DNA of 64,000 nt from an uncultured Gammaproteobacteria bacterium (lineage in GTDB: Bacteria; Patescibacteriota; Patescibacteriia; S139-126), in the NCBI GenBank assembly GCA_964620905.1, contig CAZUKA010000001.1:369107-433106 (forward strand). The letters run 5' to 3'. Position numbers and translations under genes: made by a program. Shown here piece by piece: positions 6,391 to 46,468 of the stretch; position 1 is the stretch's first letter; each line of letters opens with the position of its first letter. The notes under the pieces were generated by a model. That model searched no databases. It was not told where the DNA came from and worked only from the letters and a program-made list of their open reading frames with translations.

Positions 6391-8142
6391 TTACATTTTA
6401 TTTACCGTTTTGATATTTAGTAAATGCAAACCAGTAGCTAAAATATTGGCAGTGGCTTGGACTAAATGCAAACGCATCAATTTAGTCTCCTGGTCAGCTT
6501 TCAAAACTGGTACTGATTGATAATAATTATTAGCAAGTCCTGACAGCTCATACAAATATTCAGTCAAATAATTAATTTGCATTTTTTCATAGGTCAGATT
6601 GACAACAATCGGCCACTGGGAAATTTTTCTGGCTAAACCCGCTTCGCTTTCACCAAGATCAATCTGATTTAATAAACTAAAACTACCGGACTTTTGTAAA
6701 ATTCGTTGCAATCTAACTAAACTATAAAGTAAATAAGGACCAGTGTTGCCTTCCAAACTTAGCGAAGCCTGGGGATCAAAAATAATATTGGAACGGTGTG
6801 AACTTTTCAAAAACCAATATTTAATAGCGGCCACAGCAATACTTTTTGCAAGTTCTAACTGTTCAGGTTGTGACAGATCAGTTTGCCTTTTTGCTACTTC
6901 TTGGCAAGCAACCGTAGTTAAGTCGTTGATCAAATCATCGGCATCAACTACTTTACCTTCTCGGGATTTCATCTTACCATCAGGCAAAAGTACTTGCCCA
7001 TAGGCAAAATGCAAACATTTTTCCACCCAACTAAAACCCAATAAAGACAAAATTTTAAATAAAACTTTAAAATGATAAAGTTGCTCATCGCCCACCACAT
7101 AAATCATTTTATCAAAATGAAAATCTCGCCACCGCTTCAGTGCTAAATAAATATCCTGAGTGATATAGACCGTGGTGCCATCGGGCCTAAGTAATACTTT
7201 TTCACCACTATCTCTACCCCCGAGTCCATAAGTGCTCAAATCAATCACCACTGTGCCATCGATTTTTTTTTGCGCTAAGCCTTGGGTGACTGCATCCTGA
7301 ATAATTTCCCTGCCCTGATCATACAATTCACTTTCATAATAAACTACGTCAAACTCTGAACCATATGTTTGGTAGGTTTCCTGCCAACCCTGATAAACCC
7401 AGTTATTAAGTTTTGACCACAAAGCCAATACTGCTTTGTCCTTTTTTTCCCACACTGACAATAAATGACTAGCCTCGTCAGCCAAAGCTGGATGGTCATT
7501 AACTGCTTCATTATATTTAACATAAAAATTACCCACCAATTTATCGCCTTTGACTTTGGCTTTTTCTGGCGTGAGGCCAGATCCCCATTTTTGGTAAGCC
7601 AATAAACTTTTCATAATATGTATGCCACGGTCATTGATCACCTCGGTTTTAATAACTCGAAAACCAAAAAATTCATAAATTTTTGCCAAACTCATGCCAA
7701 TTGCATCATTGCGCAAATGTCCCAAGTGCAAAGGTTTATTGGTGTTGGGTGAAGAGTATTCAACTACTACCACTTGTCCCTCACCAAAATTTTGCTTTCC
7801 ATAATTTTTATCACCAGCTGCCTGGCAAACCTGACGGTGCAATTCAGCTAAGGGCAAGAAAAAATTTATAAACCCTTGCCCAGCTGTTTCCACTTTGATC
7901 TGGTTTGCTTGTAACCACTGGTGATTTCTAAGTTTTTTGCTTAATTCATCAGCTACCAAATGAGGTGATTTATTTTCCTGACTAGCTAATATCAACGCTA
8001 AATTTGTACTCAAATCACCCCAAGCTGCCTGAGAAGGGATTGATAAATCAAAATCCACTCCACCAGAAAGGTCAGTAAGAGTCTGTTTAATTTGGTGATA
8101 AAAATCAATCATCTTAACTTTATAGTAATAATTTTGGGCCAA
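6391..8142 (-). CDS. argS: Arginyl-tRNA synthetase.
   Basis: SSPNTNKPLHLGHLRN (HIGH-type motif) and the ArgRS N-terminal additional domain and DALR-like C-terminus are collinear. Confidence 0.9.
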   Translation of the reverse strand: MAQNYYYKVKMIDFYHQIKQTLTDLSGGVDFDLSIPSQAAWGDLSTNLALILASQENKSPHLVADELSKKLRNHQWLQANQIKVETAGQGFINFFLPLAELHRQVCQAAGDKNYGKQNFGEGQVVVVEYSSPNTNKPLHLGHLRNDAIGMSLAKIYEFFGFRVIKTEVINDRGIHIMKSLLAYQKWGSGLTPEKAKVKGDKLVGNFYVKYNEAVNDHPALADEASHLLSVWEKKDKAVLALWSKLNNWVYQGWQETYQTYGSEFDVVYYESELYDQGREIIQDAVTQGLAQKKIDGTVVIDLSTYGLGGRDSGEKVLLRPDGTTVYITQDIYLALKRWRDFHFDKMIYVVGDEQLYHFKVLFKILSLLGFSWVEKCLHFAYGQVLLPDGKMKSREGKVVDADDLINDLTTVACQEVAKRQTDLSQPEQLELAKSIAVAAIKYWFLKSSHRSNIIFDPQASLSLEGNTGPYLLYSLVRLQRILQKSGSFSLLNQIDLGESEAGLARKISQWPIVVNLTYEKMQINYLTEYLYELSGLANNYYQSVPVLKADQETKLMRLHLVQATANILATGLHLLNIKTVNKM

Positions 8143-8193
8143 TCAAGCAAGGTAAAAGTTGTGAGTACACGATCTTTGCGATACAATAAAAAT

Positions 8194-8640
8194 ATGGAAA
8201 TACTGACCAATAAATCAGCTTTATACAACTATTTCCCTCTACAAAAAATAGAGGCGGGGTTGATTTTGACTGGACCAGAAGTAAAATCAATCAAAATGAA
8301 ACGGGTAGATTTTAAAGGCAGTTATGTGACTATTAAAGACAATCAAGCTTGGCTCGTGGGTTTGCATGTTGCTCCTTATCAACCAGCCGGTGGTGTACAA
8401 AAAAACTATGAGCCAAAAAGACAAAGAAAACTACTTATAACTAAAAAAGAAATCAATCTTATCCGCGGACAACTAACCAATAAAGGATTGACAATCGTAC
8501 CATTGCGACTATATACTACCAGGGGTTTAGTGAAATTGGAATTGGCGGTAGTGAAAGGCAAAAAACAGTACGACAAAAAAGCTTTGCTCAAAAAAAGAGA
8601 CACTGAGCGTGATGTCAGACGAACTTTGAAAGAATATTAA
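8194..8640 (+). CDS. smpB: SsrA-binding protein SmpB. The track ORF starts at 8092 inside argS; ATG 8194 (MEILTNK...) is the likely start.
   Basis: AGLILTGPEVKSIKMKRVDFKGSYV...LVGLHVAPY...QRKLLITKKEI is typical SmpB. It lies immediately upstream of tmRNA. Confidence 0.88.
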   Translation: MEILTNKSALYNYFPLQKIEAGLILTGPEVKSIKMKRVDFKGSYVTIKDNQAWLVGLHVAPYQPAGGVQKNYEPKRQRKLLITKKEINLIRGQLTNKGLTIVPLRLYTTRGLVKLELAVVKGKKQYDKKALLKKRDTERDVRRTLKEY

Positions 8641-8724: not shown

Positions 8725-9101
8725 GGGGATGCTATCTATTCGCTAAGAAAGTGGAAACGTATGTTCAAATCGAGCGGCAACTCGCAAAACTACCAAAATT
8801 ATAAGTGCCAATACACTTATGAGCAAAATTAGGAACGCTTTTGCGCTACCTAACTTTGCACCAGTTGTAGCCTAATTTAGTCTACGACCATCGCTGAAAT
8901 CTGGCTCCAAGATTTCATAAGCGGTGTCATATCTGGAGCTTGAACGTCGATAAGCTGACTGTCGCCGTTTGAAATATTGTTCAGCACCACCAAAAAGTTT
9001 TTGCCTGATTTTATCTTTTTGGTTTTCCAATCAGGCTAAGTTTGTAAATCGTGCGTTGAAACTTTTTTACCACGTGGGTGCAAAGCCCACCATCTCCACC
9101 A
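8725..9101 (+). ncRNA. ssrA: tmRNA (transfer-messenger RNA, SsrA).
   Basis: 5' GGGGAUG pairs with 3' CAUCUCC, followed by ACCA. The T-arm is GUGGG-UGCAAAG-CCCAC. An internal reading frame ends ...NFAPVVA-UAA at 8873-8875. It sits right after smpB. Confidence 0.85.
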
Positions 9102-11395: not shown

Positions 11396-11791
11396 ATGAA
11401 AAACAAAAAAATCCTAGTAGCAATATATATTTTAGTTTTTGTTTTTTTAGCACTAACATCAACCAATTACGTTTTTGCTTCAAATCCGCCTGTTAACCCT
11501 CCCGGCAACCCAACAGCCAACGGAGATACTAATACTGTCAATTTGCAAAACCCCTTATCAACTAGCGATCCTGCGGAAATTATGGCCAATGTTATTAAAG
11601 GTATCTTAGGTCTTACTGGGGTTATTGCCCTGGTTGCTTTTATCGCTGGTGGTGTAATTTGGATGACCTCCGGAGGCAGTGCGGAAAAAGTAAAAAAGGG
11701 CAGGGATATTTTGGTATGGGCAGTGCTTGGACTTTTCATAGTTTTTTCCAGTTATAGTATCCTCAAATATGTTTTTGACATTTTAGGTTAA
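11396..11791 (+). CDS. Small secreted two-TM protein with VirB2/TrbC-pilin-like topology (signal peptide, polar segment, TM1, short basic loop, TM2).
   Basis: MKNKKILVAIYILVFVFLALTSTNYVFA is the signal peptide. GILGLTGVIALVAFIAGGVIWMTSGGSAEKVKKGRDILVWAVLGLFIVF is the two-TM region. A paralog with the same architecture is at 22828-23193. Confidence 0.35.
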   Translation: MKNKKILVAIYILVFVFLALTSTNYVFASNPPVNPPGNPTANGDTNTVNLQNPLSTSDPAEIMANVIKGILGLTGVIALVAFIAGGVIWMTSGGSAEKVKKGRDILVWAVLGLFIVFSSYSILKYVFDILG

Positions 11792-11845: not shown

Positions 11846-14800
11846 TCAATCTTTTTTATAATTCTTTGCGGTGTTTTTATTTATTAACTTGTCTAATTTC
11901 TTTTTTGCCTCTTTATCGCCACTTTTTGCGTCCCGCAATAAAACGCCATACTTTTGATATTCCTTCAAACCATTCAACAAAGAATCCATACTGGTTACTA
12001 CAATATTGCCCTTGTCATCAAGTTTATATTTTATTCCCATCCAACCAATAGCCTTTTTATAAAACTTGGCATCTTTGCCTATTTTTTCACCAGCTTCGTA
12101 GGTATCCAAAGTGGAATTTAAAACATATTCAATTTGTTGCTTCAATTTTTCCAAATCCTCTGAACTATCAAAATCAATTTCTTTATTATCACCTGACTGT
12201 ATTTTTCTGATTTCATCATCAAAGGCACTAAATCCTCTGGACCACTGTTTGATTGGTGGTAAGGCATGATTTTTCCATTGATCAATGGCCCGACGAAGCG
12301 AGGTATAAATTCTAGAGTTCTTTGCGCCAGCGTATTTTATTCTCTCTTTATCGCCTTTTCTAGCTGACATAATTGCTTGACCAATAGCAATATCCTCACC
12401 TCCGGATATTTTATCTCTATATCCACCAATAGCGGCTAATATACTAGATTTAAAAGCAAAGTTTGCACCACTCGAAATCATCCTGCCTGTTTTATGTCTA
12501 CCAATCGCATTTAAATATTGAAATAAACGAGTGCCCATATGAAGAGCAGGATATTTTACATAACCCTCGGGATCCCAATCAACCTGTCCCAACATAGCAT
12601 CAACTTTTTTATCACTATCAAATCTTTTGATAAAATTTCTGATATATTCAGGGGCAATTCCCAAATTATCAGCATCATTACTTACCATGATCAAATCTTT
12701 TACGTCTTTACCCCGAGCCAACTGCCTAACCAACACCGCATCATTCAATAACTTACGAATAGTACCAATGTTTTGTTGATCTTTGTTTACCAATACCTCA
12801 TGCATTGACCTCAATTTGATCTGCGGATAATCTTTTTTAAAACGGTCAATTTCAGCTAAAGTTTTATCAGAACTATAAGGACTGCCCTTTTGATCCTTGT
12901 CTGGATTATTGACAAATAAAACTATCTCAAAATCATCATCATCAACTGTTTGTTTGGTGTAGTTTTCCAAAGTTCGATAAATATTTTTTTCTTCCTGATG
13001 GCCAGCTACTGGTATACATACTGAGACTCGACACTTTTCATTGATTGGTTCAATTTGTCCAACCAATCTATCAACCTGTTGTTTGTGTTCTGAAGAAAAT
13101 GACTCGGTATATCTTTTTATTTCAGCATAACTATCAAGTTCTGCTGCTGGATTTTCTTTCAATGTTGGGGAACATTTTTTCTCAAACTCAGCTTGGGAAT
13201 TTTTATCAATCTCACCTGACATCATATAATAAGGCGGGGGAACTTCTATCCCTGGATCTTTCCTTTTGGTATTTTCCAATGACTTACGCCAATAAACCGG
13301 TATAATTGGGGGCATTTCTATTTCTCTATTTGGATCAAGATCAAAAATTGGAATTTTTTCATCACGGTCAAAAATAGCTATCGGCACTTCTTGATCAGTT
13401 GCACCTGGATATTCTGAATCCTCCAATCCTTCACCAACTGCTGTGGCTAAAATACGAACCTGATCTACACCTTCTTGAGTCTGACCAACTGTATGTACCA
13501 CTTCCGCGTATTTACCAAGATATTTAGCGTGTCCCTTATCATCAAGTGCAAATAATTTCTCCCCGATGGGCGAATCCTTGTCAATTATCACATTACCTGT
13601 CTCGGGATCTATTGGCAGTTCAATTACTTGATTTTGGGTACCTACTGACACTGACAGCTGAACCTTCATCTCTCCTTTTTTGATTAACTCTTGAGCATCG
13701 ACTGATGCTTTTGAACCGTCAACAAAAGTATGATAAGAACCATCTTTATCCATTTTAATCACATTGAAGACATAATTCCCTTCGGTGTCTAAACCGCCTT
13801 TGCCACCCCAATGTAATTTCAATTCGTTTTTGTCAAAAATTGGTTTGGGTGTGTCATTATCATACCAAAGATTTCGTTTAATCTGTTCAAATAACTCCTG
13901 GTGTTTATTGATAAAGTCTTGACTAGAATTTTCCTCAACCCCTACCCCAGCCAATAAATCACTGCCATACTTGGCGGTCGTACTTTCAAAAATTATATTT
14001 TTACTCTGCAATTCAGCTTGTAATTGCTCATCCACAATCAGACTGTTATTTTCAGCAAAATTTAAACCAGCCAAAATTGTATCGTGGTTATCTTTGGAAA
14101 AAATAGAATAAGTACCATCTACTTCTTTTTTAATATCCCAATGTTCTGGCAGTCTAACTATTTTGTCATCTATCTCAATACTATTTAAGGCATGACCACG
14201 AATCATCTCTGATATTGTTACACCATTTTCTTTTAATTCTTGTTTAAATTCTTCAGCGATAGATCCATCTGGCTCTATTTCAATTTTTTCTACTATTGTT
14301 TGCTCACCACCCATCAAAGAATAGGTCCCGTCTTCATTTTTTATCATTTCACAACCTGCGGGTATTTTTGCTACCAATCCGTTATCAATATTTACAACTT
14401 GCGTACCCTGACTGCCTTCCGGGCCATCATTCCACAAATATTCGCGTAAAGATTCTAGGGCTGAATTACTCTTGATGGCAGTTTGACCTAAAATATCTTC
14501 TTTTTTATTGAAAATACTATCAATCCCACTCTCAACCAATCCCTGCTGATTGCCGCGGAAGAAAGCAGCTCCTTCTTGAAAGGCGGTACCAACTACTGCC
14601 CCAACCATTGCTCCTTTGCCCGCTGCTTTCAAGGCTCGACTATTTCTCATTTTATTAAATAAACGGTTTTTATTTTCAACTTCGTTGCGCATAAAAAGCT
14701 CCTGACGTGAATCTACTACTTGTTTATAAAAATCGTTGAAGTCGTCAATTTTAGTTCCATCTGTCAAAACTAGACCACCTTTATTTTCAATCAGCTGTTT

Positions 14801-16177
14801 TAAATCTCTTTTCACTTGGCCGCGCAGTAAATCCATCTGTTGACGCTCATGTTCAACAGCGGTCACATCTGAATACTGAATCATGTCTATATTATGTCGA
14901 TCAGAAATTTTTACTCTTGCTTCTAAATCTGATAGCTGATCAATCGCTGTCTGTAAATGAAGATCAACACCACCTCTGGATTTACTTAAATCTTTCAAAA
15001 GCCAATGACCATTTTCATCAGTCTTTATACTGCCATCATCTTCTATTTCATACATCGTTGCTTTTAGTTGATCAATTGCTGTTGATGCTTCTATGGTTTG
15101 ATAACGGTATTGTTCCATTTCAACTCTTCGTACTGCCTCTTTTTCATCATATTTTCTGCCTTTGGCCATTTCTCTTGAGTGTTGTCTTCTCTCTTCGGTC
15201 AAACGCTTCCGCTCTCTGGCAAAACCAATTGAACCGCCAACCAAGGCTGTACCAACTAAGGGTAGTGCGCGAGCGATTGTACTGACTGATCTTTTGGCTA
15301 AACCCAAACCAACCGAAGTTGCTGTCGCTACTGCCAAAGCTGCACCGGTTTCATTTACCAGTGATGACAAAACTTTACTTTTGGCTGTACCTTTTTGCAA
15401 TTTGTCCATTATTTTATCAACCATATCAAATTTAGCTTCAGTTCGAACTCCCAATCTGGCTTTTCCCACCACAATATCAAAATTCAAATCATTATCTAGA
15501 TTGTCTATTGCCAATCCGTGTTCTACTGCATCTCGGTATTGTTTGGCCATTTCCAACATGTTGTCAGTAAATCGTAAATGATTGTCAACATGGTCTGCGG
15601 CAACACCGTGAATTTTTGATAAAACCCGGTTACGTTCTTCTTGAAATTGATTTTCATCAATTTTGCCACTGGCAAAATCTTTTAGTGCTTGTTTAATCTC
15701 CTGTTTTAAATCAGTACTATCCTCAGTTGTCTTCTCTTTTGTTTCATTTTCACCCAGCACATATCTCTTTTCTCCGGCTTCGGTATGAATTGTTTCTTCA
15801 TACTCAACATCGGCAAACCTAGAAACAATAGACTCCTTGGCTTTTTCACTATACAAGACATCTGCTTCCTCGCCAGTAAAAATATTTCCGGTTTCTCTCA
15901 TTTCCTTTTTGGCTTTTTCAACTTCTTTACGATGATAGTAGTGATGCATGGTATCGTGCTTCCACAATTTCTTGAAAAATTTCTTTGAACCATCTCTGGT
16001 AAAAAATTCTTTAAAACCTTTAATTTGTAACTCATTGACTTCCTCGGTCATACGCAAATCAGCAATATCACGGGCTTGCGTTTCTACTAAATTTTCTACA
16101 TCCACTAAAACTAATTTATTTTCCAGTTTTCTCTCCGGAGCAGAATCAATATTTCTAAAAATTTTTTCAGGTGTCAT
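11846..16177 (-). CDS. Giant multidomain protein (1443 aa). It has an N-terminal coiled-coil/charged region, two Gly/Ala-rich hydrophobic segments, a beta-rich middle and a C-terminal GT-A fold glycosyltransferase (GT2-like, DXD) domain.
   Basis: RVSVCIPVAGHQEE...IVLFVNNPD...LIMVSNDADNLG (DXD)...GGEDIAIG matches the GT-A signature. The remainder has no recognisable family. Confidence 0.6.
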   Translation of the reverse strand: MTPEKIFRNIDSAPERKLENKLVLVDVENLVETQARDIADLRMTEEVNELQIKGFKEFFTRDGSKKFFKKLWKHDTMHHYYHRKEVEKAKKEMRETGNIFTGEEADVLYSEKAKESIVSRFADVEYEETIHTEAGEKRYVLGENETKEKTTEDSTDLKQEIKQALKDFASGKIDENQFQEERNRVLSKIHGVAADHVDNHLRFTDNMLEMAKQYRDAVEHGLAIDNLDNDLNFDIVVGKARLGVRTEAKFDMVDKIMDKLQKGTAKSKVLSSLVNETGAALAVATATSVGLGLAKRSVSTIARALPLVGTALVGGSIGFARERKRLTEERRQHSREMAKGRKYDEKEAVRRVEMEQYRYQTIEASTAIDQLKATMYEIEDDGSIKTDENGHWLLKDLSKSRGGVDLHLQTAIDQLSDLEARVKISDRHNIDMIQYSDVTAVEHERQQMDLLRGQVKRDLKQLIENKGGLVLTDGTKIDDFNDFYKQVVDSRQELFMRNEVENKNRLFNKMRNSRALKAAGKGAMVGAVVGTAFQEGAAFFRGNQQGLVESGIDSIFNKKEDILGQTAIKSNSALESLREYLWNDGPEGSQGTQVVNIDNGLVAKIPAGCEMIKNEDGTYSLMGGEQTIVEKIEIEPDGSIAEEFKQELKENGVTISEMIRGHALNSIEIDDKIVRLPEHWDIKKEVDGTYSIFSKDNHDTILAGLNFAENNSLIVDEQLQAELQSKNIIFESTTAKYGSDLLAGVGVEENSSQDFINKHQELFEQIKRNLWYDNDTPKPIFDKNELKLHWGGKGGLDTEGNYVFNVIKMDKDGSYHTFVDGSKASVDAQELIKKGEMKVQLSVSVGTQNQVIELPIDPETGNVIIDKDSPIGEKLFALDDKGHAKYLGKYAEVVHTVGQTQEGVDQVRILATAVGEGLEDSEYPGATDQEVPIAIFDRDEKIPIFDLDPNREIEMPPIIPVYWRKSLENTKRKDPGIEVPPPYYMMSGEIDKNSQAEFEKKCSPTLKENPAAELDSYAEIKRYTESFSSEHKQQVDRLVGQIEPINEKCRVSVCIPVAGHQEEKNIYRTLENYTKQTVDDDDFEIVLFVNNPDKDQKGSPYSSDKTLAEIDRFKKDYPQIKLRSMHEVLVNKDQQNIGTIRKLLNDAVLVRQLARGKDVKDLIMVSNDADNLGIAPEYIRNFIKRFDSDKKVDAMLGQVDWDPEGYVKYPALHMGTRLFQYLNAIGRHKTGRMISSGANFAFKSSILAAIGGYRDKISGGEDIAIGQAIMSARKGDKERIKYAGAKNSRIYTSLRRAIDQWKNHALPPIKQWSRGFSAFDDEIRKIQSGDNKEIDFDSSEDLEKLKQQIEYVLNSTLDTYEAGEKIGKDAKFYKKAIGWMGIKYKLDDKGNIVVTSMDSLLNGLKEYQKYGVLLRDAKSGDKEAKKKLDKLINKNTAKNYKKD

Positions 16178-16198: not shown

Positions 16199-16220
16199 AT
16201 GCTTAAACGGATTTAAGCAT
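16199..16220 (-). terminator. Hairpin that overlaps the stop of the 16213-16557 gene.
   Basis: atgcttaaa-cgga-tttaagcat, followed in the minus sense by ttttttatttat. Confidence 0.5.
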
Positions 16221-16557
16221 TCAAATAAACATTGCGAAATTGCATGAGTTCAGCCGAAATTTTTTCAGTCAAGTCGGGAATATACTTATTTAAAAATTCA
16301 TTCATCTGTTTACTATCAGATTTTTCATTATCCAATAATTTTTCAAACTCGGCCAAAGTATCTGCTGGAAGATTTTTTAAAATCATGGCATTGATTTTAT
16401 CTTCCAATCTTTCCAATAAATCCGACTTTACTTCTGCTAAAACATCAGTTTCTAAATAATCAAGTCCTTTTTCCTTTACCAATTGTTGAATAAATTGATC
16501 GTACATTTTGTCTACTTCAGCCAAATTGTCTGAACTATTTACATTTGTTTTGATCAT
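16213..16557 (-). CDS. Small, highly acidic, alpha-helical protein (hypothetical; possibly a chaperone or immunity-like partner).
   Basis: ORF with an E/D/L/K-rich helical sequence and no TM. Confidence 0.5.
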   Translation of the reverse strand: MIKTNVNSSDNLAEVDKMYDQFIQQLVKEKGLDYLETDVLAEVKSDLLERLEDKINAMILKNLPADTLAEFEKLLDNEKSDSKQMNEFLNKYIPDLTEKISAELMQFRNVYLNA

Positions 16558-16649
16558 AAAACTATATAAATTAATGCTTATATAATTAATTATAACATTT
16601 TATGATATCATATTTTGCATAAATTGTCAATCATGAAAATATCTATTTA

Positions 16650-16837: not shown

Positions 16838-17536
16838 ATGTTAAAAAAATTCGGAAAAAAAGTTAAAGACTTTTTTACTAGTAATGCTGCCGGCGTGGCC
16901 ACGGGTGTTGTCGGTGGACATGCTTTGAGTAGTTTCTTAATAGAACTATTTAAAGGAGGCGCTGGTGAAGTAGGCAAATTGGTCCTGCAAAATATAACTC
17001 AAACACCACCCAGAGCTGAACTGGAAAAAGTTCTTCTGGGGCTTCCTGATCCCAAAAGAATATTTTGGGAAGATAGATTAAAAGAAGCAAAGGATGATAC
17101 AAATCATCGTCCAAGCGAAAATGAAACAGTGACAGCATGGTGTAAACCGTTGCTGTTGAAAAAAATGAAAGTCTATATCCAAAACAAGGATGGAAGTCCT
17201 GCATTGGATAAAGAAGGTCATCCGGCTTATTATGAAACCGGGGAAATTCTCAATGACGACGAACTCCGTGAACATATTTACGGAAAAGTCGCAGATTTAG
17301 GAGTTGAGGAGTTCTGGATCTGGACAGATCTCCTGATCCATGATCGCTGGCAACAAATATTTCAGCGTTTCGGAAAAAAGTTTAAAAATCTTTTGAAAGC
17401 AAATTGGCAAAAAATTGCAAATCTGTATAAAAAAGTAATGACTTATACAGAAAATGAGTCCAACCGGGCTCATCAAGAAGTACGCGCTCAAAGAGATGCG
17501 CGTAGAAGAAGAATTGAAAATATTACAAATAATTAA
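16838..17536 (+). CDS. Hypothetical protein with a Gly-rich amphipathic N-terminus and a basic C-terminus.
   Basis: Strong RBS (aaaaggag) 7 nt upstream of the ATG. No family recognised. Confidence 0.55.
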   Translation: MLKKFGKKVKDFFTSNAAGVATGVVGGHALSSFLIELFKGGAGEVGKLVLQNITQTPPRAELEKVLLGLPDPKRIFWEDRLKEAKDDTNHRPSENETVTAWCKPLLLKKMKVYIQNKDGSPALDKEGHPAYYETGEILNDDELREHIYGKVADLGVEEFWIWTDLLIHDRWQQIFQRFGKKFKNLLKANWQKIANLYKKVMTYTENESNRAHQEVRAQRDARRRRIENITNN

Positions 17537-17556
17537 AAATCAAAAAGGAGTTTAAA

Positions 17557-18846
17557 ATGCTTTATTATAGCATATCTGTATTATCGTTATGTTTATTAAT
17601 CTGGGGGTACTGGTATGTACTCACCAGATTAATTAGCTTTTCCACTGCCACTTCTGGCGGTGTGGCAAATACCGTCAATGACCTATTGGGCCAAGCGGTT
17701 GATGCTGTTGAACCTATAAGTCAGCACCTTCCAATCTTGGGGCCATTGGTTCCAAGAGTTGAAAATTTCATTGCTGGGACTTTGGAAAATGTTTTAGCAT
17801 TGATTGTGCCTATGGCACACAATGTCAGGGATAGGCTAATTTGGGCCGCAGTGTATATTTCCGGGATACTAATCCTGCAGATGTTATTTACATTTATTGG
17901 CTGGCTATTTCCAGTTGCCTTCCTGGTTGTTCTAAACTTACTACTATCATACGCAGTAGCACAAACCTACGACCCAATTGTTGATGCTTTTTTCAAAAAA
18001 TATAAATTTAGAAGAAGCATCCGCCCTTTTGCACTTGTAGTCGGCTTACATCTCAACTTACTTGTCTTGACACTTTATTGGTATTTGATTGACAAAAATT
18101 TTTATCAATCAACCTTGGAAATTTTTTCTATATTTATTTTGTTAATTGTAGGTTGGGGCTTTATGCTCCTCTACAAACTGTATAGAAATGAAAAAGGTGA
18201 ATGGCAACCTAAGTTCTCTGACAAAGCCGGGGTGGTATTAAATACCGCTTCAATCATATTACTAGCATTCCTCTTGCTAGTAAAATTAATTGGGGTTGAG
18301 ACGGTAGAAAATGTTGGTGACTCTGGACAAAAAAGAGTCAAGGGTGTTGTTGAGTGGACAAGTAAACTTCTAAATAGCCCGGATTTTCTACCGGGTTATA
18401 CCAACAAGGAAACAAATCTGCTAACAGCAAATATGTTTAAACTGATGGTCGTGCCGTCAGAAACAGCTCTCAGATTCCCTGATTTCTATCAGGATAGGTT
18501 AACTAACCTCTCAACTACATATGTAAAAGTAAAACTGGAAAGTGGAGATGAGGGTTATATTAACCTTCTTGATTTAGAACAAGGTTTTCTAAACCCAAAA
18601 GAAAAAACAGAAAAATATGAAGAAGAAAAAGAATTAATTAAAAACCAAAATCAAGACACATTAAAATACGACTTTCCTGATAAAACACGATTTAAAATAG
18701 TGACTAAATCAGGAAAACCTTTTTTACAGGCCGACGGAGAACGTTGGCAACTCTGGGAGTCTGGACAAATGTTCAGAAAATTATTCCCTCAGGATATTGT
18801 AAAAGGTACAGTTGACGGAGAAAAATTCTTCGTCATAGTCCAATAA
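17557..18846 (+). CDS. Hypothetical polytopic membrane protein (~6 TM, ~240 aa) with a ~190-aa soluble C-terminal domain.
   Basis: RBS (aaaggag). Hydrophobic helices are seen in the translation. Confidence 0.55.
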   Translation: MLYYSISVLSLCLLIWGYWYVLTRLISFSTATSGGVANTVNDLLGQAVDAVEPISQHLPILGPLVPRVENFIAGTLENVLALIVPMAHNVRDRLIWAAVYISGILILQMLFTFIGWLFPVAFLVVLNLLLSYAVAQTYDPIVDAFFKKYKFRRSIRPFALVVGLHLNLLVLTLYWYLIDKNFYQSTLEIFSIFILLIVGWGFMLLYKLYRNEKGEWQPKFSDKAGVVLNTASIILLAFLLLVKLIGVETVENVGDSGQKRVKGVVEWTSKLLNSPDFLPGYTNKETNLLTANMFKLMVVPSETALRFPDFYQDRLTNLSTTYVKVKLESGDEGYINLLDLEQGFLNPKEKTEKYEEEKELIKNQNQDTLKYDFPDKTRFKIVTKSGKPFLQADGERWQLWESGQMFRKLFPQDIVKGTVDGEKFFVIVQ

Positions 18847-18930: not shown

Positions 18931-19950
18931 TTATTTTAAAATAATTAATTTTTTGGTGACAATTTTGTCATCAGCTATCAGACGATAAATATAAGTGCCG
19001 CTGGGCAAATTGTCAGGTAAAAAATTTACCTCGTGTTTACCATCAACTAATGGTTGGTTTAACAAATTGGCAACTTCATTGCCCAATATATTGAAAACAA
19101 GTAATTCTACTTGAGCTGGTTTAGGTAGATAAAACGAAATGATGGTTTCGCTATTGAATGGATTGGGATAATTGTCATAAAGCACAACACTTACCGGACC
19201 AAAAACTTCCACCTCTACGGAGCCGTAAATTTTACTTTCACCATTGTAATCCACTTGTCGCAGTCGATATTGATACTTCCCTGCTCTATTTAGCACATCA
19301 ACAAAATCATATGCCCCTTTTGTTTTTGTTGGAACAAAACCAAGCTGCTGCCATCCGAAATCTTGTCGATCAACAAAAAATCCATAATTGTTTGTTTCGG
19401 TAATTGTCGTCCAACTAAGTTGAACTGTAAATCTTTCACTGACAGCAAAAAATGAAATAAGTTCCACCGGTACTGGCGCATCAATTTGAATTGGTAAAAT
19501 AAGACTGTCAGGCAAAGCTGTGAGTTTAGCACGTAATTGATAATTTCCTAAGGGTATAGTTGAACCCAAGACAATGGTGGTATCAAAACGTATTTGCGAT
19601 CCATAAGTGAGCAGTCGGACCGTATTAGTATCTGGTGGTTCATTGGCTGGAACATTGTTCCAAATCAATTGATTATCTTGCCACAAGGAAAAGGTAACCC
19701 ATCTGGCTACAGGAAAAGTAAGATCAATCGGGAATATTCCCCAATTTTTGGCAGATAAACACAAGAAAACAGAATCTCCGACTACATAGTATGAAGTATC
19801 ACTGGTAAAAACCAGATGTAGATTTGGATTGCTTTGAGCAAATTTGGTTGTCTCATGACAGCCACAAAAATAATTGCACTCACCCGGTAGCTGAGCTAGT
19901 GGCTCAAAAGTAAAAATAAAAACAAACAACAGTAACCACAGTACTTTCAT
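18931..19950 (-). CDS. Secreted protein with a T9SS (Por) type-A C-terminal sorting domain.
   Basis: There is a signal peptide. The C-terminus YDNYPNPFNSETIISFYLP...GKHEVNF...SGTYIYRLIADDKIVTKKLIILK matches the Por_Secre_tail consensus. Confidence 0.7.
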   Translation of the reverse strand: MKVLWLLLFVFIFTFEPLAQLPGECNYFCGCHETTKFAQSNPNLHLVFTSDTSYYVVGDSVFLCLSAKNWGIFPIDLTFPVARWVTFSLWQDNQLIWNNVPANEPPDTNTVRLLTYGSQIRFDTTIVLGSTIPLGNYQLRAKLTALPDSLILPIQIDAPVPVELISFFAVSERFTVQLSWTTITETNNYGFFVDRQDFGWQQLGFVPTKTKGAYDFVDVLNRAGKYQYRLRQVDYNGESKIYGSVEVEVFGPVSVVLYDNYPNPFNSETIISFYLPKPAQVELLVFNILGNEVANLLNQPLVDGKHEVNFLPDNLPSGTYIYRLIADDKIVTKKLIILK

Positions 19951-39860: not shown

Positions 39861-41066
39861 TTAAAAACTACTAGCCAGCTGATACATGGGTAGTATAATA
39901 GCCGCTACCATCAGCCCCACGCCTACACCCATCAGCACCATAATCAATGGTTCTATTAGACTTACCATATTGGCTACCAAATTTTCAATTTCCCGAGCAT
40001 AAAAATCAGTAATTTTTGTTAAAATTTGCTCAAGTCTACCGGTTTGTTCTCCCACTGACATCATTTGCGATACTAAAGGAGGAACTTCCGGACTTTTCAA
40101 AAACAGCGAAGCTACACTATTGCCATCCTCTACTTCTTTGATAGTTTTTTTTATCAAATCTTTATACAAATCATTGCCCACTACATCAGCCGTTACTTCC
40201 AGTGCGGCCGTCAAAGGCACGCCACCCACGATTAAAGTAGAAAGTGATCTGGTTAGACGTACCAGATATATCCGTTGCCACAATTTGCCAAACACCGGAA
40301 TTTTTAGTTTCAGCCGGTCATAGTAAATCTTAGCTGGTCCTCGCCTAGTCAGACGGAACAGAGTATACCCACCACCGCCAACCAAAAAAAGCAAAATATA
40401 CCAATAGTGGCGCATAAAATTTGATACCATAATCAAAATTCGCGTCGCAATTGGCAACTCTGCACCTGATTCAGAAATAATAGCTGTGAGTTTTGGCACC
40501 ACAAACACCATCATCACAATCGCCACAATCGTCAAACCGACCAAAATAAACACCGGATAAATCATAGCGCCTTTTATTTTGGAAGTAAGATCATAATCTT
40601 TTTCCTGCTGATCAGCTAAATAGTTCAACACTTCGTCCAACTTACCACTAGTTTCGCCGGATCTAAGCATCGCTACATAAAAATCAGAAAAAGTTTTATG
40701 GTACCGTCCCAAAGCTTGAGACAATTTAGCTCCACCGTCAACTTCATCAGCCACTTCAGAAATAATAACTTTCAAACGTTTATTGTCTGTTTGATTTACC
40801 AAAATTTTCAACGCCTGCACAATCGGCACGGAAGCGGAGGCCATCACCGCCAGCTGGCGCGAAAAAACCACAATATCTTTATTTTTTATCCGATTTAAAA
40901 AAGGCAAATCAAAATTCAAAGACAATTTTTCTTTTTCTTCCAAAGACAAAATAATCAAACCCCGATCAACCAAAATTGACGAGGCGACGTTTTCGGACGG
41001 TGCTTCCACTGATCCTTGCATAACTTCACCGCGGGCATTGCGAGCACGGTATTGGAAAAATGCCAT
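39861..41066 (-). CDS. pilC: Type IV pilus assembly platform protein (GspF family).
   Basis: Two T2SS-F domains and three TM segments. Confidence 0.88.
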   Translation of the reverse strand: MAFFQYRARNARGEVMQGSVEAPSENVASSILVDRGLIILSLEEKEKLSLNFDLPFLNRIKNKDIVVFSRQLAVMASASVPIVQALKILVNQTDNKRLKVIISEVADEVDGGAKLSQALGRYHKTFSDFYVAMLRSGETSGKLDEVLNYLADQQEKDYDLTSKIKGAMIYPVFILVGLTIVAIVMMVFVVPKLTAIISESGAELPIATRILIMVSNFMRHYWYILLFLVGGGGYTLFRLTRRGPAKIYYDRLKLKIPVFGKLWQRIYLVRLTRSLSTLIVGGVPLTAALEVTADVVGNDLYKDLIKKTIKEVEDGNSVASLFLKSPEVPPLVSQMMSVGEQTGRLEQILTKITDFYAREIENLVANMVSLIEPLIMVLMGVGVGLMVAAIILPMYQLASSF

Positions 41067-41072
41067 AAAAAT

Positions 41073-42143
41073 TTATGATCTTAAGATTCTTTTTAAATTT
41101 TCCGGGTCATTCACTTCCTGCAAGGCAATAGTCGGATCAATTTGCCCGGACCTGACTAGTTCGGCAATATACCGATCCATAGAAATCATTCCTTGTTCGC
41201 GCGAAGACAATAAAATACTGGATAGCTGGGCCAATTTATTTTCCTTGATTGATGAAGCTATCAAAGAGCTGCCAAACACTATTTCCATCGCTAGCACCAA
41301 CCCTCCACCCAAACGAGGTAATAATTTTTGTATGATTGCTCCCCTAAATACTTTTGATAATAAATAACGAGCATGCTCCCGAGTATCTTCTGGACAAGTA
41401 TCAATTACGCTATGCAACAACTGACCAATGCTATTTCCTTCCAGAGGCATAAATACCAACACACCACTGTTGGCAATCTCCAACAATCGATACATTATCC
41501 GCGGACTATTGACCCGTGTCACCATCATCACATCAACATCCTCTTCTCTGATCTCCAAAGCTTCCAGCCAGGATTCAGCATCACCACCAATATCTTTTTG
41601 TTGAATTAAACTTTTATTGCCAATCAGAACATGCTCTATGGGTTGTTCTAGAGTGAGAATATTTCTGCTTTGTGACCGATTGATCGTCTCGATAAAACCA
41701 ACCATGGTAGTGGTCTTACCCGCCCGATAAGGGCCACCAATCAGCACCAAACCACTACGTTCGTGGGTTAAATTTTCTACTGCTTTGGGAAAACCAAGTT
41801 CAGCTAAAGTTTTAACAATCACCGGTATATAGTGAAAAACTATTGAAGGAAAACTTTTTTGAAAAAATATATCTACCCGAAAACGTGCCCGATCGCCAAA
41901 ATCATAAGCAAAAATAATTTCTTTTCGACTACCTAAAATTTGTTTTTGTTCAGGACTAAGTAAGATATCAATTACTCCTTGAATAAAGTCATTGGTAATC
42001 ACTTCTTCATCCGACATCTCCACCAACTCTTCGTATAATCTCATCATTGGTCGCGTACCAACCACCAAATGCAAATCCGAGCCGTGACGTTCAGCTACCA
42101 CCGTCAAGATGCGATTTAGTGTAATATTGAGTGTAGTTTGCAT
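41073..42143 (-). CDS. pilT: PilT-like pilus retraction ATPase (divergent Walker A).
   Basis: The N-terminal HGSDLHLVVGTRPMMR and the P-loop GGPYRAGKTTT, with PilT-like length. Confidence 0.75.
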   Translation of the reverse strand: MQTTLNITLNRILTVVAERHGSDLHLVVGTRPMMRLYEELVEMSDEEVITNDFIQGVIDILLSPEQKQILGSRKEIIFAYDFGDRARFRVDIFFQKSFPSIVFHYIPVIVKTLAELGFPKAVENLTHERSGLVLIGGPYRAGKTTTMVGFIETINRSQSRNILTLEQPIEHVLIGNKSLIQQKDIGGDAESWLEALEIREEDVDVMMVTRVNSPRIMYRLLEIANSGVLVFMPLEGNSIGQLLHSVIDTCPEDTREHARYLLSKVFRGAIIQKLLPRLGGGLVLAMEIVFGSSLIASSIKENKLAQLSSILLSSREQGMISMDRYIAELVRSGQIDPTIALQEVNDPENLKRILRS

Positions 42144-42520
42144 TATTGCTTTTGTAATAATTTTTTTAAACTGTCCACTAATTCATCAGGGTCGGTATTG
42201 ATTTTGACAAAATAAGCCCGCACCAAATCCGGGATCGGCTCGTTTTCTTCGGCAGTAGCCCGATCATAATTTGACAGCACTACACACAGTGGTTGGGGTT
42301 CGGGCGATTCGGCTACCAAGCGCAACAAATCCCAACCAGAAAGTTCGGGAATATTGAGATCTACCACCGCTGCTTGGGGATGATATTTTTCAATTGTTCG
42401 CCAGGCTGACAGACCATCGCGCGCCGAATAAACCATAAAACCTTTGTCACTAAACTTTCGCGCATACAAAGACAATAAATATTGATCATCCTCCACAATT
42501 AAAACTGATTGCTTGTCCAT
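42143..42520 (-). CDS. Single-domain response regulator (CheY/PilH-like receiver).
   Basis: VLIVEDD...VVDLNIP...K is the REC pattern. It is embedded in the pil operon. Confidence 0.75.
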   Translation of the reverse strand: MDKQSVLIVEDDQYLLSLYARKFSDKGFMVYSARDGLSAWRTIEKYHPQAAVVDLNIPELSGWDLLRLVAESPEPQPLCVVLSNYDRATAEENEPIPDLVRAYFVKINTDPDELVDSLKKLLQKQ

Positions 42521-42524
42521 GGTT

Positions 42525-44285
42525 TTATTCTTTAGTCACTCTTAAAATTTCTTCCATGGTGGTTTTACCTTGCAAAACTTTGATAATGCCATCTTGTTGC
42601 ATATTTGGAAGTCCTTGTTCAATAAAGATGCGCTCAATTTCGTCCAATTTATTGTTTTCCAACATCTTTTTTAAATCATCATTCATGGACAACACTTCTA
42701 CCACTGCCAACCGTCCTTGATAACCAGAATCACCGCAGCGCGGGCAACCGCGACCGCGATAAAATTTATACTCCTCACGTTGTATCATGGTTTGTAAATC
42801 CTTGGCTAAATGTTCTGGTTTTACATCCACGATCGTCTTTTTTACCTGATCAATCAATTTTTCCGGAATATCACTTATCTCCTCTTTACAAAATTCACAT
42901 ATCTTTCTAACTAAGCGCTGAGCGATTACTACGTTGAGTGTGGAACCAAGCAAAAACGGTTCTACATGCATATCTATCAACCGCGGTATAGCGCCAATCG
43001 CATCATTGGTATGCAACGTGGACAATACCATATGTCCGGTCAAAGCGGCGTGGATGGCCAGTTCTGCAGTTTCATTGTCCCGTATCTCACCCACCATAAC
43101 AATATCAGGATCTTGACGTAAAGCAGCCCGCAGACCGTTGGCAAAACCATAACCAACTTCCGTGTTGACTTGCGACTGATTGATACCATCTAAATAATAC
43201 TCAATCGGATCTTCCAGAGTTAAAATATTTACTCCTTCTTTATTTAATAAATTTAATGCTGCATAAAGAGTAGTTGATTTACCGCTACCGGTAGGGCCAG
43301 TTACCAAAAACATACCAGTGGATTTTTCTATATTTTCATATAAAATCTCCAGTCCTTTGCCCCAAAAGCCAAGTTCTTCCAGAGTAATTATCTTATTGGT
43401 TACATCCAAAATACGCAGTACCACTTTTTCTGCATTGAACAAAGGTAAAAAAGAAATACGTAAATCCACTTTTTTATTGCCTATTTGTACTCTGATACGT
43501 CCATCTTGTGGTATTCTAGTTTCATCAATTTTCAAATTGGATATCACCTTCAACCGGGTAATCAAAGAATTATGCAAATGTTTTGGTAACCGCAACGAAG
43601 TGTGTAAAATACCGTCAATCCGGTACCTAACGCGAGTGCTATCTTCAGCTGGTTCAATATGTATATCAGAAGCATTACCTTCAACGGCGTGTTTTAAAAT
43701 GGATTCCACCATTTTGGAAACCGGGGCGGATTTGATAACTTCCTCAAAATCTTTTTCCTCTTCTTCTTCTTTTTCTTCGGCTTTTTTCTTTTGATACAAA
43801 TCCTCGACAATATCCAAGGCTTTTTTTACTTCGGTTTTTAGAGATTCGTATTGTTTGATAGTATGATCAAAAGCGTTTTTGGTAATGACATAATATTCCA
43901 CCCGATAATTATTTTTACGGGCTAAAAATTCCAAAGCTTCAATAGCTTTAAAATCACCTGGATCAACGATGCCCACTTTCAAGTGTTCGGTTTTTTTATC
44001 ATAAGCAAATGGCACCACCAAATAATTCTCCGCCAAATCTTTGGGTATCAAATTTAAGATATCATTGGCTACTCGCTGGCTATAAAGATCAAAATAAGGC
44101 AAATTGAAAAATTCTCCTTGGGCCTTGGCAATTGCCTCTTCACTAACACCCAAAGATTTAGCCGCTTGCTCAAAATCAACCCCTTGAGCCATTTGGTTTT
44201 TTAAATCAACCAGCTGCTTTTCTTTAAGCTGATTGTTTTTGGCTAAAATTTCTATTAGATTTTCAGAAAATCTGGCTGAAGACAT
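42525..44285 (-). CDS. pilB: Type IV pilus assembly ATPase (GspE family).
   Basis: Walker A VTGPTGSGKSTT. C-terminal CPRCGDSG zinc motif. N-terminal GSPII-like domain. Confidence 0.9.
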   Translation of the reverse strand: MSSARFSENLIEILAKNNQLKEKQLVDLKNQMAQGVDFEQAAKSLGVSEEAIAKAQGEFFNLPYFDLYSQRVANDILNLIPKDLAENYLVVPFAYDKKTEHLKVGIVDPGDFKAIEALEFLARKNNYRVEYYVITKNAFDHTIKQYESLKTEVKKALDIVEDLYQKKKAEEKEEEEEKDFEEVIKSAPVSKMVESILKHAVEGNASDIHIEPAEDSTRVRYRIDGILHTSLRLPKHLHNSLITRLKVISNLKIDETRIPQDGRIRVQIGNKKVDLRISFLPLFNAEKVVLRILDVTNKIITLEELGFWGKGLEILYENIEKSTGMFLVTGPTGSGKSTTLYAALNLLNKEGVNILTLEDPIEYYLDGINQSQVNTEVGYGFANGLRAALRQDPDIVMVGEIRDNETAELAIHAALTGHMVLSTLHTNDAIGAIPRLIDMHVEPFLLGSTLNVVIAQRLVRKICEFCKEEISDIPEKLIDQVKKTIVDVKPEHLAKDLQTMIQREEYKFYRGRGCPRCGDSGYQGRLAVVEVLSMNDDLKKMLENNKLDEIERIFIEQGLPNMQQDGIIKVLQGKTTMEEILRVTKE

Positions 44286-44291
44286 AAAAAA

Positions 44292-45201: not shown

Positions 45202-45203
45202 AT

Positions 45204-46463: not shown

Positions 46464-46468
46464 AAAAA

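What the first reader, a model, noticed from the sequence alone, without database searches (positions are those of the whole stretch)
11846..16177. 1443-aa giant protein ending in a GT-A (DXD) glycosyltransferase domain with no cell-wall biosynthesis context
The C-terminal ~250 residues carry GT2-like motifs (VSVCIPV..., SNDADN as DXD, GGEDIAIG). They are fused to ~1000 residues of coiled-coil, Gly/Ala-rich hydrophobic segments and beta-rich repeats (DGTYS... twice). Soluble DXD glycosyltransferase domains fused to large delivery scaffolds are the architecture of glycosylating toxins and effectors. Its neighbours are a tiny acidic helical protein and a strongly promoted two-gene operon of unknowns.
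Basis: partly seen in the sequence, partly recalled or inferred. Interest (0 to 1): 0.6.

Follow-up and report, generated by a model that had tools for sequence, protein, structure and literature searches.

The report
CPR scaffold protein carrying a glycosyltransferase
The 1443-residue gene is real and ends in an intact sugar-transferring enzyme of the ordinary GT2 type rather than a toxin type, but it belongs to a very large, undescribed family of modular proteins from ultrasmall symbiotic (CPR) bacteria, always paired with a tiny partner gene, whose role is unknown.

Summary
ORF 11846-16177 (-) encodes 1443 aa, and every quoted motif is present. An AlphaFold model of the C-terminus matches only GT2-type inverting GT-A enzymes (PcManGT, hyaluronan synthases, TarP/TarS, RmlT, BcsA, GtrB). 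No toxin glycosyltransferase appears in the 50 matches listed. The DAD, ED and RR motifs are kept in 45-52 of 52 related GT domains.

The "tiny acidic helical" neighbour is DUF5663. It sits directly upstream of the giant gene in 33/38 and 40/41 related loci, so the unit is a two-gene operon.

The first ~950 residues form an unannotated scaffold: a helical domain, three weakly hydrophobic Gly/Ala segments and an acidic beta-rich domain. It occurs in at least 846 protein clusters. Every relative that carries a reliable organism name is CPR/Patescibacteria.

After a conserved PPxIPxxGRxPLE motif the payload varies: GT2 (61%), GT9-like, or K/E-rich repeats. Add-ons include Ser/Thr kinase, PP2C, YkuD and calpain-like domains.

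Homology to glycosylating toxins is not supported. A scaffold-plus-payload design is supported.

Which side of which membrane the enzyme works on is unresolved. My best guess is a membrane-associated glycosylation platform inside the CPR cell (0.4). The main rival is a host-directed effector (0.3).

The parts
11846..16177 (-). Complete ORF, 1443 aa: scaffold (residues 1-950), boundary motif, then GT2-type payload
   Evidence: ORF; 13 full-length homologs, P0001 99% identical; scaffold profile: 1288 clusters at E<=1e-3, 846 at E<=1e-30
16213..16557 (-). DUF5663 partner gene (114 aa, acidic, helical), 35 nt upstream of the giant ORF on the same strand; probably co-transcribed
   Evidence: PF18908 E=1.7e-9, 38.6 bits against cut-off 23.7; immediately upstream in 33/38 and 40/41 related loci, gaps mostly 0-35 nt
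16602..16630 (-). Promoter-like site TTGACA-17-TATCAT (11/12, TG before -10) ahead of DUF5663; candidate operon promoter
   Evidence: sequence. Consensus match only: the total number of such sites in the region equals the shuffle expectation
15368..16177 (-). N-terminal conserved helical domain (residues 1-270), no signal peptide, many invariant charged residues (W72, E125, H131, G135-E136, G243-V-R-T-E247)
   Evidence: helices, pLDDT 60-88; family N-terminal extensions are charged, with no signal peptide or TM
15221..15352 (-). First two Gly/Ala-rich hydrophobic segments (residues 276-319, hairpin with a 6-aa basic loop), preceded by invariant N275-E276
   Evidence: Kyte-Doolittle 1.21/1.46; no 19-residue window of the window protein has Hessa dG below +4
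14636..15220 (-). Basic helical region (residues 320-514) with invariant ERRQHSREMAKG (329-340) and a long helix running into the third hydrophobic segment
14558..14635 (-). Third hydrophobic segment (residues 515-540; invariant G526, G530, E535). Strongly basic flank before it, acidic flank after it
   Evidence: (11 family members, mean K+R 6.0 before and 0.7 after)
13328..14542 (-). Acidic beta-rich central domain (residues 546-950; 76 D+E against 38 K+R) with conserved WYDNDTP...NELKLHWGG motifs
   Evidence: no structural match
14219..14395 (-). Internal repeat copy 1 (residues ~595-653, contains DGTYS at 616)
13994..14179 (-). Internal repeat copy 2 (residues ~667-728, DGTYS at 687); lies in an insertion specific to this protein
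13274..13315 (-). Scaffold/payload boundary motif MPPIIPVYWRKSLE (family consensus PPxIPxxGRxPLE)
   Evidence: strict regex found in 124/158 representatives, median 9 aa after the scaffold profile end
11978..13180 (-). GT2-type GT-A glycosyltransferase domain (residues 1000-1400)
   Evidence: fold; weak GT2 Pfam/NCBIfam hits; motif conservation in 52 domains
12668..12676 (-). DXD motif D1168-A1169-D1170
   Evidence: conserved D 50/52, A 52/52, D 52/52
11849..11977 (-). C-terminal K-rich helical tail (residues 1401-1443); in many relatives a Ser/Thr kinase follows here, but not in the window

Best explanation
Shown: genes 16213-16557 and 11846-16177 form a two-gene module that is widespread in CPR/Patescibacteria. 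A small DUF5663 protein is encoded directly ahead of a modular giant protein. The giant has a ~950-residue conserved scaffold: a helical N-domain, three marginally hydrophobic Gly/Ala helices and an acidic beta-rich domain. The scaffold ends in a PPxIPxxGRxPLE motif, which is followed by an exchangeable enzymatic payload. In the window the payload is an intact GT2-type (inverting, GT-A, metal/DXD-dependent) glycosyltransferase.

Inferred, my committed mechanism: the protein stays in the CPR cell. Its N-domain and its payload both face the cytoplasm, and the Gly/Ala helices hold it at the inner face of the membrane. There the GT domain transfers a sugar from a nucleotide-sugar to a membrane-proximal acceptor, such as an envelope glycoconjugate or a protein destined for the surface. 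DUF5663 is an obligate scaffold-binding subunit or assembly factor. In relatives the same platform also carries or recruits a Hanks-type kinase, PP2C, a second GT or a GT9-type GT. This suggests stepwise glycosylation and phosphorylation of one substrate.
For: GT fold and motifs.

All frequent payloads need cytoplasmic co-substrates (nucleotide sugars, ATP). These are GT2 in 97/158 representatives, GT9-like, Pkinase (E 1e-20 to 1e-33) and PP2C.

Fission variants exist. In L001, L010, L013, L019, L022 and L045 the kinase or an extra GT is a separate gene next to the giant. These proteins have no signal peptide or hydrophobic segment, so they are soluble cytoplasmic proteins.

A homologous GT domain in a different architecture (L034) follows a genuine TM helix with a +6 K/R flank, which places it in the cytoplasm.

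The three hydrophobic segments are far less hydrophobic than real TM helices of the same genome. Their median simplified Hessa dG is +6.3/+3.6/+4.6 kcal/mol, with none below 1.5 in 71 members. VIT1, the 429-aa membrane protein and the pilin from the same window score -2.6 to +2.1. So they need not all span the membrane.

The GT is the best-conserved part: 45-56% identity for the closer relatives against 36-39% for the scaffold. No immunity-like gene is conserved downstream. The neighbouring genes that could be identified are housekeeping genes. No copy lies on viral contigs, and the window proteins have no defence-library hits.
Against: Taken at face value, three conserved hydrophobic segments plus a long, charged N-terminus without a signal peptide put the payload OUTSIDE the producer's membrane. 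The flank charges agree: mean K+R is 6.0 before the third segment and 0.7 after it.

Three family members carry YkuD L,D-transpeptidase domains on the payload arm, one of them together with the GT. From established knowledge of that family, YkuD domains work outside the cytoplasmic membrane.

Payload exchange behind a conserved boundary motif is more typical of delivered effectors than of housekeeping enzymes.

No acceptor, donor sugar or pathway partner has been identified. The window itself has no kinase. No transmembrane or signal-peptide predictor was available; topology rests on my own hydropathy scripts.
Confidence: 0.4

Rival explanations
1. Host-directed modular effector. The scaffold is a delivery device. 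The N-domain stays in the CPR cell or on its surface. The weakly hydrophobic Gly/Ala helices escape the producer's membrane-insertion machinery (kept soluble by DUF5663 acting as a chaperone) or act as a signal-anchor. The payload after the PPxIPxxGRxPLE motif is exported and acts in the attached host cell, where nucleotide sugars and ATP are available.
For: Conserved scaffold with exchangeable payloads: GT2, GT9-like, kinase, PP2C, YkuD, calpain-like protease, DUF362, and weak DnaJ and HopA1 hits. A conserved boundary motif sits exactly at the junction. The small partner gene is coupled to the scaffold whatever the payload. The positive-inside rule predicts N-in/C-out. Marginal hydrophobicity is, from my knowledge of the literature, what transmembrane effectors and pore-forming toxins show. 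The mix of cytoplasm-type and wall-type (YkuD) enzymes on one arm fits action in another cell. CPR bacteria are obligate epibionts. A type IV pilus cluster is recognised by eye in the same window.
Against: No signal peptide, no known secretion-system targeting domain and no identified secretion route. No conserved immunity gene. The payload is more conserved than the scaffold. Soluble stand-alone kinase and GT paralogs sit next door. L034 places the same GT in the cytoplasm. The GT is of the ordinary GT2 kind. T4SS-pilin-like ORFs lie nearby in only 4 of 46 loci.
Confidence: 0.3
2. Extracytoplasmic envelope enzyme of the CPR cell itself. It would be anchored N-in/C-out like a class A penicillin-binding protein, with the GT (and YkuD in some relatives) modifying wall or surface polymers outside the membrane.
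For: Topology rule. YkuD co-occurs with the GT on one arm. The acidic beta-rich domain could be a wall- or surface-binding module. The structural neighbours are wall-glycopolymer GT2 enzymes.
Against: DXD GT-A enzymes, GT9 enzymes, Hanks kinases and PP2C use nucleotide-sugar, ATP or phosphoprotein substrates that are not available outside the membrane (established biochemistry of these families). The hydrophobic segments are poor Sec substrates. Stand-alone soluble paralogs exist.
Confidence: 0.1
3. A true homolog of glycosylating toxins (large clostridial toxin GT44, Legionella Lgt/SetA, NleB/SseK type) fused to a toxin translocation apparatus.
For: Only the generic features: a DXD GT-A domain plus a large hydrophobic-segment-containing region.
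Against: No toxin GT appears among the 50 Foldseek matches listed; the fold matches are GT2 enzymes. No Pfam or NCBIfam toxin, CPD or CROP domain is found. No PDB sequence match. The domain order is the reverse of TcdA/B.
Confidence: 0.03

Closest known systems
GT2 wall-glycopolymer and cellulose-synthase-like glycosyltransferases (TarP/TarS, RmlT, GtrB, PcManGT, hyaluronan synthase, BcsA)
   Same: GT-A fold (Foldseek probability 1.0). DXD (DAD). An ED motif at the position of the catalytic base. A basic RR motif after it. Weak hits to Pfam PF13641, PF13632 and PF00535.
   Different: 10-18% identity only, and below the Pfam gathering scores. No own transmembrane channel or trimerisation domain. 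SxRRA replaces QxxRW. The domain sits at the end of a 950-aa scaffold found in no characterised GT2 enzyme.
Modular delivered toxins (large clostridial toxins, MARTX; polymorphic toxins such as CdiA, Rhs/WapA, LXG)
   Same: A large conserved non-enzymatic region with weakly hydrophobic helices, a conserved junction motif, and exchangeable enzymatic domains.
   Different: No sequence or fold relation. No signal peptide, TPS, LXG, PAAR or RHS domain. No immunity gene. The payloads are mostly glycosyltransferases and signalling enzymes that are better conserved than the scaffold.
Chaperone/adaptor plus TM-containing effector pairs (T6SS Eag-effector, T7SS Lap-LXG); comparison from memory
   Same: A small gene immediately upstream of a large protein that carries marginally hydrophobic helices and a C-terminal enzyme. 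The coupling follows the N-terminal part, not the payload.
   Different: DUF5663 matches no solved structure by sequence. No binding has been shown. No T6SS or T7SS genes were seen in the window (most ORFs were only read by eye).
LPS inner-core assembly set WaaC/WaaF (GT9) plus WaaP/WaaY (kinase-fold sugar kinases)
   Same: In relatives, GT9-like payloads (PF01075, best E=8e-15). The associated kinases also hit PF06293 Kdo/WaaP above its cut-off (30.4 against 21.3 bits).
   Different: The kinases match Hanks-type Pkinase far better (E=1e-33). From general knowledge, CPR are monoderm-like and lack LPS. The window protein has a GT2 payload and no kinase.

Membership tests
GT2-type GT-A glycosyltransferases | GT-A (Rossmann-like alpha/beta/alpha) fold | tested here: met
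   AF2 model pLDDT 76, pTM 0.79. Foldseek against PDB: 131 hits at E<=1e-3, and the 50 listed are GT2-type enzymes.
GT2-type GT-A glycosyltransferases | DXD metal/nucleotide-sugar binding motif | tested here: met
   D1168-A-D1170. Invariant in 13 homologs and in 50-52 of 52 domains.
GT2-type GT-A glycosyltransferases | Acidic catalytic-base motif (ED/TED position) | tested here: met
   E1261 in 51/52 and D1262 in 45/52 domains. The equivalence to the catalytic base is inferred from motif order, not from a superposition.
GT2-type GT-A glycosyltransferases | Curated profile match (Pfam GT2 models at gathering score) | tested here: inconclusive
   PF13641 E=1.3e-5 but 25.8 bits against cut-off 27 on the isolated domain. 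14-15 bits on the whole protein. One relative (P0039) carries PF13632 and PF13641.
GT2-type GT-A glycosyltransferases | Glycosyl transfer with inversion from a nucleotide sugar | not testable with these tools
   Needs enzymology.
Processive synthase-type GT2 (BcsA/HAS) | QxxRW motif and a transmembrane channel flanking the GT domain | tested here: not met
   SLRRA (R1295-R1296) replaces QxxRW. No hydrophobic segment lies after residue 540.
Glycosylating toxins (TcdA/B GT44, Lgt, SetA, NleB/SseK) | GT domain closest in sequence or fold to toxin glycosyltransferases | tested here: not met
Glycosylating toxins (TcdA/B GT44, Lgt, SetA, NleB/SseK) | Toxin accessory modules (autoprotease, receptor-binding repeats) or a secretion signal | tested here: not met
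   No Pfam or NCBIfam hits outside the GT. The N-terminus is charged and not hydrophobic. The scaffold model has no structural match.
Polymorphic toxin / effector systems | Conserved N-terminal region with variable C-terminal domains | tested here: met
   Of 158 scaffold representatives, 97 carry GT2, 21 have GT9-like tails, 21 have K/E-rich tails and the rest differ.
Polymorphic toxin / effector systems | Conserved junction (pre-toxin-like) motif | tested here: met
   PPxIPxxGRxPLE in at least 124/158, at the scaffold end. Whether it is a processing site is unknown.
Polymorphic toxin / effector systems | Cognate immunity gene directly downstream | tested here: not met
   Neighbour clustering over 46 loci finds only DUF5663 (upstream) as a conserved partner. 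In the window the next gene is a convergent pilin gene.
Polymorphic toxin / effector systems | Recognisable secretion-system targeting domain (LXG, PAAR, RHS, TPS, signal peptide) | tested here: not met
DUF5663 (PF18908), partner gene | Profile match above the gathering score | tested here: met
   38.6 bits against 23.7, E=1.7e-9. 211 small stand-alone homologs.

The most novel reading that the evidence does not exclude
The DUF5663 + scaffold-payload module is a lineage-wide host-interaction device of CPR bacteria. It would be a surface-anchored or exported carrier that delivers exchangeable enzymes (glycosyltransferases, Ser/Thr kinases and phosphatases, a wall transpeptidase-like domain, a protease) into or onto the host cell. 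DUF5663 would act as its chaperone, and PPxIPxxGRxPLE would be the release or translocation junction.
Probability: 0.3. Interest if true: 0.9.

Novelty: new variant of a known kind. Interest (0 to 1): 0.6.

Why it matters
CPR/Patescibacteria make up a large share of bacterial diversity. Their cultivated members live attached to other microbes, and almost nothing is known about the proteins that mediate this. This gene belongs to a family with at least 846 clusters at 50% identity. The family has no Pfam, NCBIfam or literature description for its scaffold. It is strictly paired with a DUF, and it carries interchangeable nucleotide-sugar- and ATP-dependent enzymes behind a conserved junction.

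If the payload works inside the CPR cell, the family defines a lineage-specific glycosylation and phospho-signalling platform for the envelope. If it works in the host, it would be the first general effector system proposed for these epibionts.

The topology contradiction is a concrete, experimentally testable question: cytoplasm-type enzymes are predicted to lie outside the membrane.

Tried and rejected
- Toxin-GT homology was rejected.
- Pfam, NCBIfam, PADLOC and PHROGs searches on the giant protein, DUF5663 and the divergent operon gave nothing beyond weak GT2 hits and DUF5663.
- PDB sequence searches with profiles of the GT domain, the scaffold and DUF5663 gave no significant hit.
- The fold search of the scaffold model (pLDDT 62) found nothing at E<0.8.
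- The large protein upstream of a kinase-GT fusion (L008, 1367 aa) is not a scaffold homolog (hhalign probability 0.1).
- The giant Omnitrophica and 'Planctomycetales' proteins that carry the same GT domain (L048, L046) have no Pfam domains.
- The adjacent T4SS-type pilin as a conserved partner was rejected: pilin-like ORFs are nearby in only 4 of 46 loci.
- A kinase in the window: none found by tblastn.
- A phage origin: no viral contig carries the scaffold.
- A tandem arsenal of scaffold genes: none seen in 21-kb loci. Extra DUF5663 paralogs are solitary.
- Literature searches for DUF5663, PF18908, CPR glycosyltransferase/kinase giants and Patescibacteria effectors found no description.
- The first attempt to scan genomes with the diverse GT alignment failed for lack of a conserved stretch.

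Full report
OBSERVATION. The ORF at 11846..16177 (-) is present as described: ATG start, 1443 aa. G+C content (0.37-0.38) matches the rest of the window. A 99%-identical full-length copy exists in independent assemblies (P0001). The quoted motifs lie at residues 1051, 1166 and 1259, and DAD translates from nt 12668-12676. 'DGTYS twice' marks a genuine tandem duplication of a ~60-aa unit (score 58 against 25.7 +/- 5.0 in shuffles). Its second copy is an insertion unique to this protein. Three Gly/Ala-rich hydrophobic stretches lie at residues 276-294, 301-319 and 515-540.

THE C-TERMINAL DOMAIN. On the full protein, Pfam and NCBIfam give only sub-threshold GT2 hits, and PDB sequence search gives nothing. 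An AF2 model of residues 940-1443, built on 13 homologs, has pLDDT 76 and pTM 0.79. Foldseek against the PDB returns 131 hits at E<=1e-3. The 50 listed are GT2-type inverting GT-A enzymes: PcManGT (E=2.4e-8), hyaluronan synthases, chondroitin polymerase, TarP/TarS, RmlT, BcsA, GtrB and mannosylglycerate synthase. No toxin glycosyltransferase is among them. On the isolated domain PF13641 reaches E=1.3e-5, at 25.8 bits against a cut-off of 27. Across 52 related GT domains the putative catalytic residues are almost invariant: D1168 50/52, A1169 52/52, D1170 52/52, E1261 51/52, D1262 45/52, R1295-R1296 51-52/52, N1090 51/52. I conclude that the domain is an intact GT2-type enzyme under strong constraint and is not a relative of TcdB, Lgt or NleB-type toxins.

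THE FAMILY. The whole-protein search found 13 homologs with the same end-to-end architecture. The two that carry an organism name are Candidatus Nomurabacteria and Candidatus Uhrbacteria. An exhaustive HMMER search with a profile of residues 1-950 found 1288 clusters (50% identity) at E<=1e-3 and 846 at E<=1e-30; the top 150 are mostly 1200-1800 aa long. A scan of GTDB species representatives with the GT domain returned 40 loci. Those with informative record titles are Paceibacterota, Minisyncoccia, Uhr-, Morani-, Levyi-, Davies-, Magasanik- and Saccharibacteria, plus one Omnitrophica giant of 6251 aa. Many other titles are generic 'uncultured ...' labels (including Gammaproteobacteria) on third-party assemblies, which I do not trust. 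No part of the scaffold matches Pfam, NCBIfam, PDB sequences or PDB folds. No viral contig carries it. No searchable paper mentions DUF5663/PF18908 or such a family.

THE PARTNER GENE. The 'tiny acidic helical protein' at 16213..16557 (-) is DUF5663 (PF18908, E=1.7e-9). It lies 35 nt upstream on the same strand, behind a TTGACA-17-TATCAT promoter-like site. A DUF5663 gene lies immediately upstream in every homolog locus inspected individually. Counted systematically, it is there in 33 of 38 genome loci and 40 of 41 metagenome loci that include upstream DNA, with gaps mostly of 0-35 nt. The coupling holds whatever the payload is, so DUF5663 goes with the scaffold. DUF5663 proteins are always small and stand-alone (211 hits, 99-197 aa). 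All-against-all clustering of neighbours over 46 loci finds no other conserved partner. T4SS-pilin-like ORFs, like the convergent one at 11396..11791, occur in only 4 loci.

MODULARITY. Of 158 scaffold representatives, 97 carry the GT2 domain and 61 do not. The non-GT2 tails fall into three groups. Twenty-one form a GT9 (heptosyltransferase-like) cluster; PF01075 matched 13 of 32 members scanned, best E=8e-15. Twenty-one are K/E-rich repeat tails with no Pfam match. The rest are a few small clusters and singletons. Extra modules behind the GT include:
- Hanks-type Ser/Thr kinase (E 1e-20 to 1e-33), fused in about 14 genome loci and a separate next gene in four
- PP2C
- YkuD L,D-transpeptidase (E=4.6e-8, 7e-7, 3e-4)
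- a calpain-like protease (E=9e-6)
- DUF362 (E=5e-17)
- weak DnaJ and HopA1 hits
- second GT domains or paralogous GT genes next door

The junction between scaffold and payload carries a conserved motif, PPxIPxxGRxPLE, in at least 124/158 representatives. In the window it reads MPPIIPVYWRKSLE. The window protein has the simplest version, scaffold + GT2. No kinase was found anywhere in the 64 kb by tblastn.

WHERE DOES THE ENZYME WORK? This is unresolved, and it is the most interesting point.

For a cytoplasmic payload:
- GT2, GT9, Hanks kinase and PP2C all need cytoplasmic co-substrates.
- The stand-alone kinase and GT paralogs have no export signal.
- In L034 the same GT follows a genuine TM helix with a +6 K/R flank.
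- On a simplified Hessa scale the three hydrophobic segments are very poor membrane-insertion substrates. Medians are +6.3/+3.6/+4.6 kcal/mol and none is below 1.5 in 71 members. Real membrane proteins of the same window score -2.6 to +2.1.

For an external payload:
- The three segments are conserved in position across the family, and some reach Kyte-Doolittle values of 1.7-2.0.
- N-termini are long, charged and lack signal peptides.
- In the 11 members tested, the flank before the third segment is strongly basic (mean K+R 6.0) and the flank after it is acidic (mean K+R 0.7).
- YkuD domains share the payload arm.

These analyses are my own scripts; no dedicated topology predictor was available.

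INTERPRETATION. I commit, at 0.4, to a membrane-associated glycosylation (and, in relatives, phosphorylation) platform acting at the cytoplasmic face in the CPR cell, with DUF5663 as a scaffold subunit. The main rival, at 0.3, is a host-directed modular effector. It explains the payload exchange, the junction motif, the upstream partner, the marginal hydrophobicity and the mix of wall-type and cytoplasm-type enzymes. It lacks any identified secretion route or immunity gene, and it sits uneasily with a payload that is more conserved than its carrier (45-56% against 36-39% identity). An extracytoplasmic envelope enzyme gets 0.1 and a true toxin-GT homolog 0.03.

VERDICT. The gene is a member of a large, apparently undescribed family seen mainly in CPR lineages. 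The GT domain itself is a new, divergent branch of a known kind. Interest 0.6.

Noticed in passing
window 8725-9101 (+): tmRNA found by Rfam (93 bits, full-length model) next to smpB (8092-8640). ARAGORN did not report it.
   Followed up: partly
window 11396-11791 (+): 131-aa T4SS-type pilin (PF18895 E=9e-10; TrbC/VirB2-like), convergent with the giant gene. Similar pilin-like ORFs, sometimes in tandem arrays (L017), lie near the module in only 4 of 46 loci.
   Followed up: partly
window 18931-19950 (-): 339-aa protein with a hydrophobic N-terminus that looks like a signal peptide and a type IX secretion C-terminal sorting domain (TIGR04183 E=3.4e-11). This is unexpected in a CPR-like, presumably monoderm genome. 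It could be horizontal transfer or a different use of the domain.
   Followed up: no
window 16838-18846 (+): Divergent two-gene unit (232 aa; 429 aa with six genuine TM helices) behind a TTGACA-17-TATACT site. No Pfam, NCBIfam, PADLOC or PHROGs match, and no homolog in any related locus, so it is not part of the conserved module.
   Followed up: partly
window 39861-47665 (-) and 60394-62728 (-): By eye, a type IV pilus cluster (PilC-, PilT-, PilB- and PilM-like, with Walker A motifs at the expected places) and a ComEC-like competence channel, as is typical for CPR genomes.
   Followed up: no
L029 6527-13855; L048 2-18757; L046 2-11821; L034 8315-12028: Extreme relatives. One is scaffold-GT-kinase-PP2C in a single 2442-aa protein. 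A 6251-aa Omnitrophica protein and a protein of at least 3940 aa carry the same GT domain with no other Pfam domain. One polytopic membrane protein has the GT after a real TM helix.
   Followed up: partly
L001, L010, L059 downstream of the module: A UvrD-type helicase, and in L001 and L010 also KsgA/RsmA, recur a few genes downstream of the module in several distant loci. There is no such arrangement in the window.
   Followed up: no
L001 10364-11365 (stand-alone kinase): Read by eye, the kinase associated with the module has VDLAPLN in place of HRDLKPxN and a degenerate glycine loop. It keeps the VAK lysine, a DLDG (DFG-like) motif and APE, so it is atypical but possibly active. It also matches the Kdo/WaaP sugar-kinase model above its cut-off in L010 and L022.
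   Followed up: partly
window 16213-16557: An identical DUF5663 protein (P0199) is recorded on a 716,806-bp NCBI contig, so the window probably comes from a near-complete small (CPR-sized) genome. That record could not be retrieved.
   Followed up: partly
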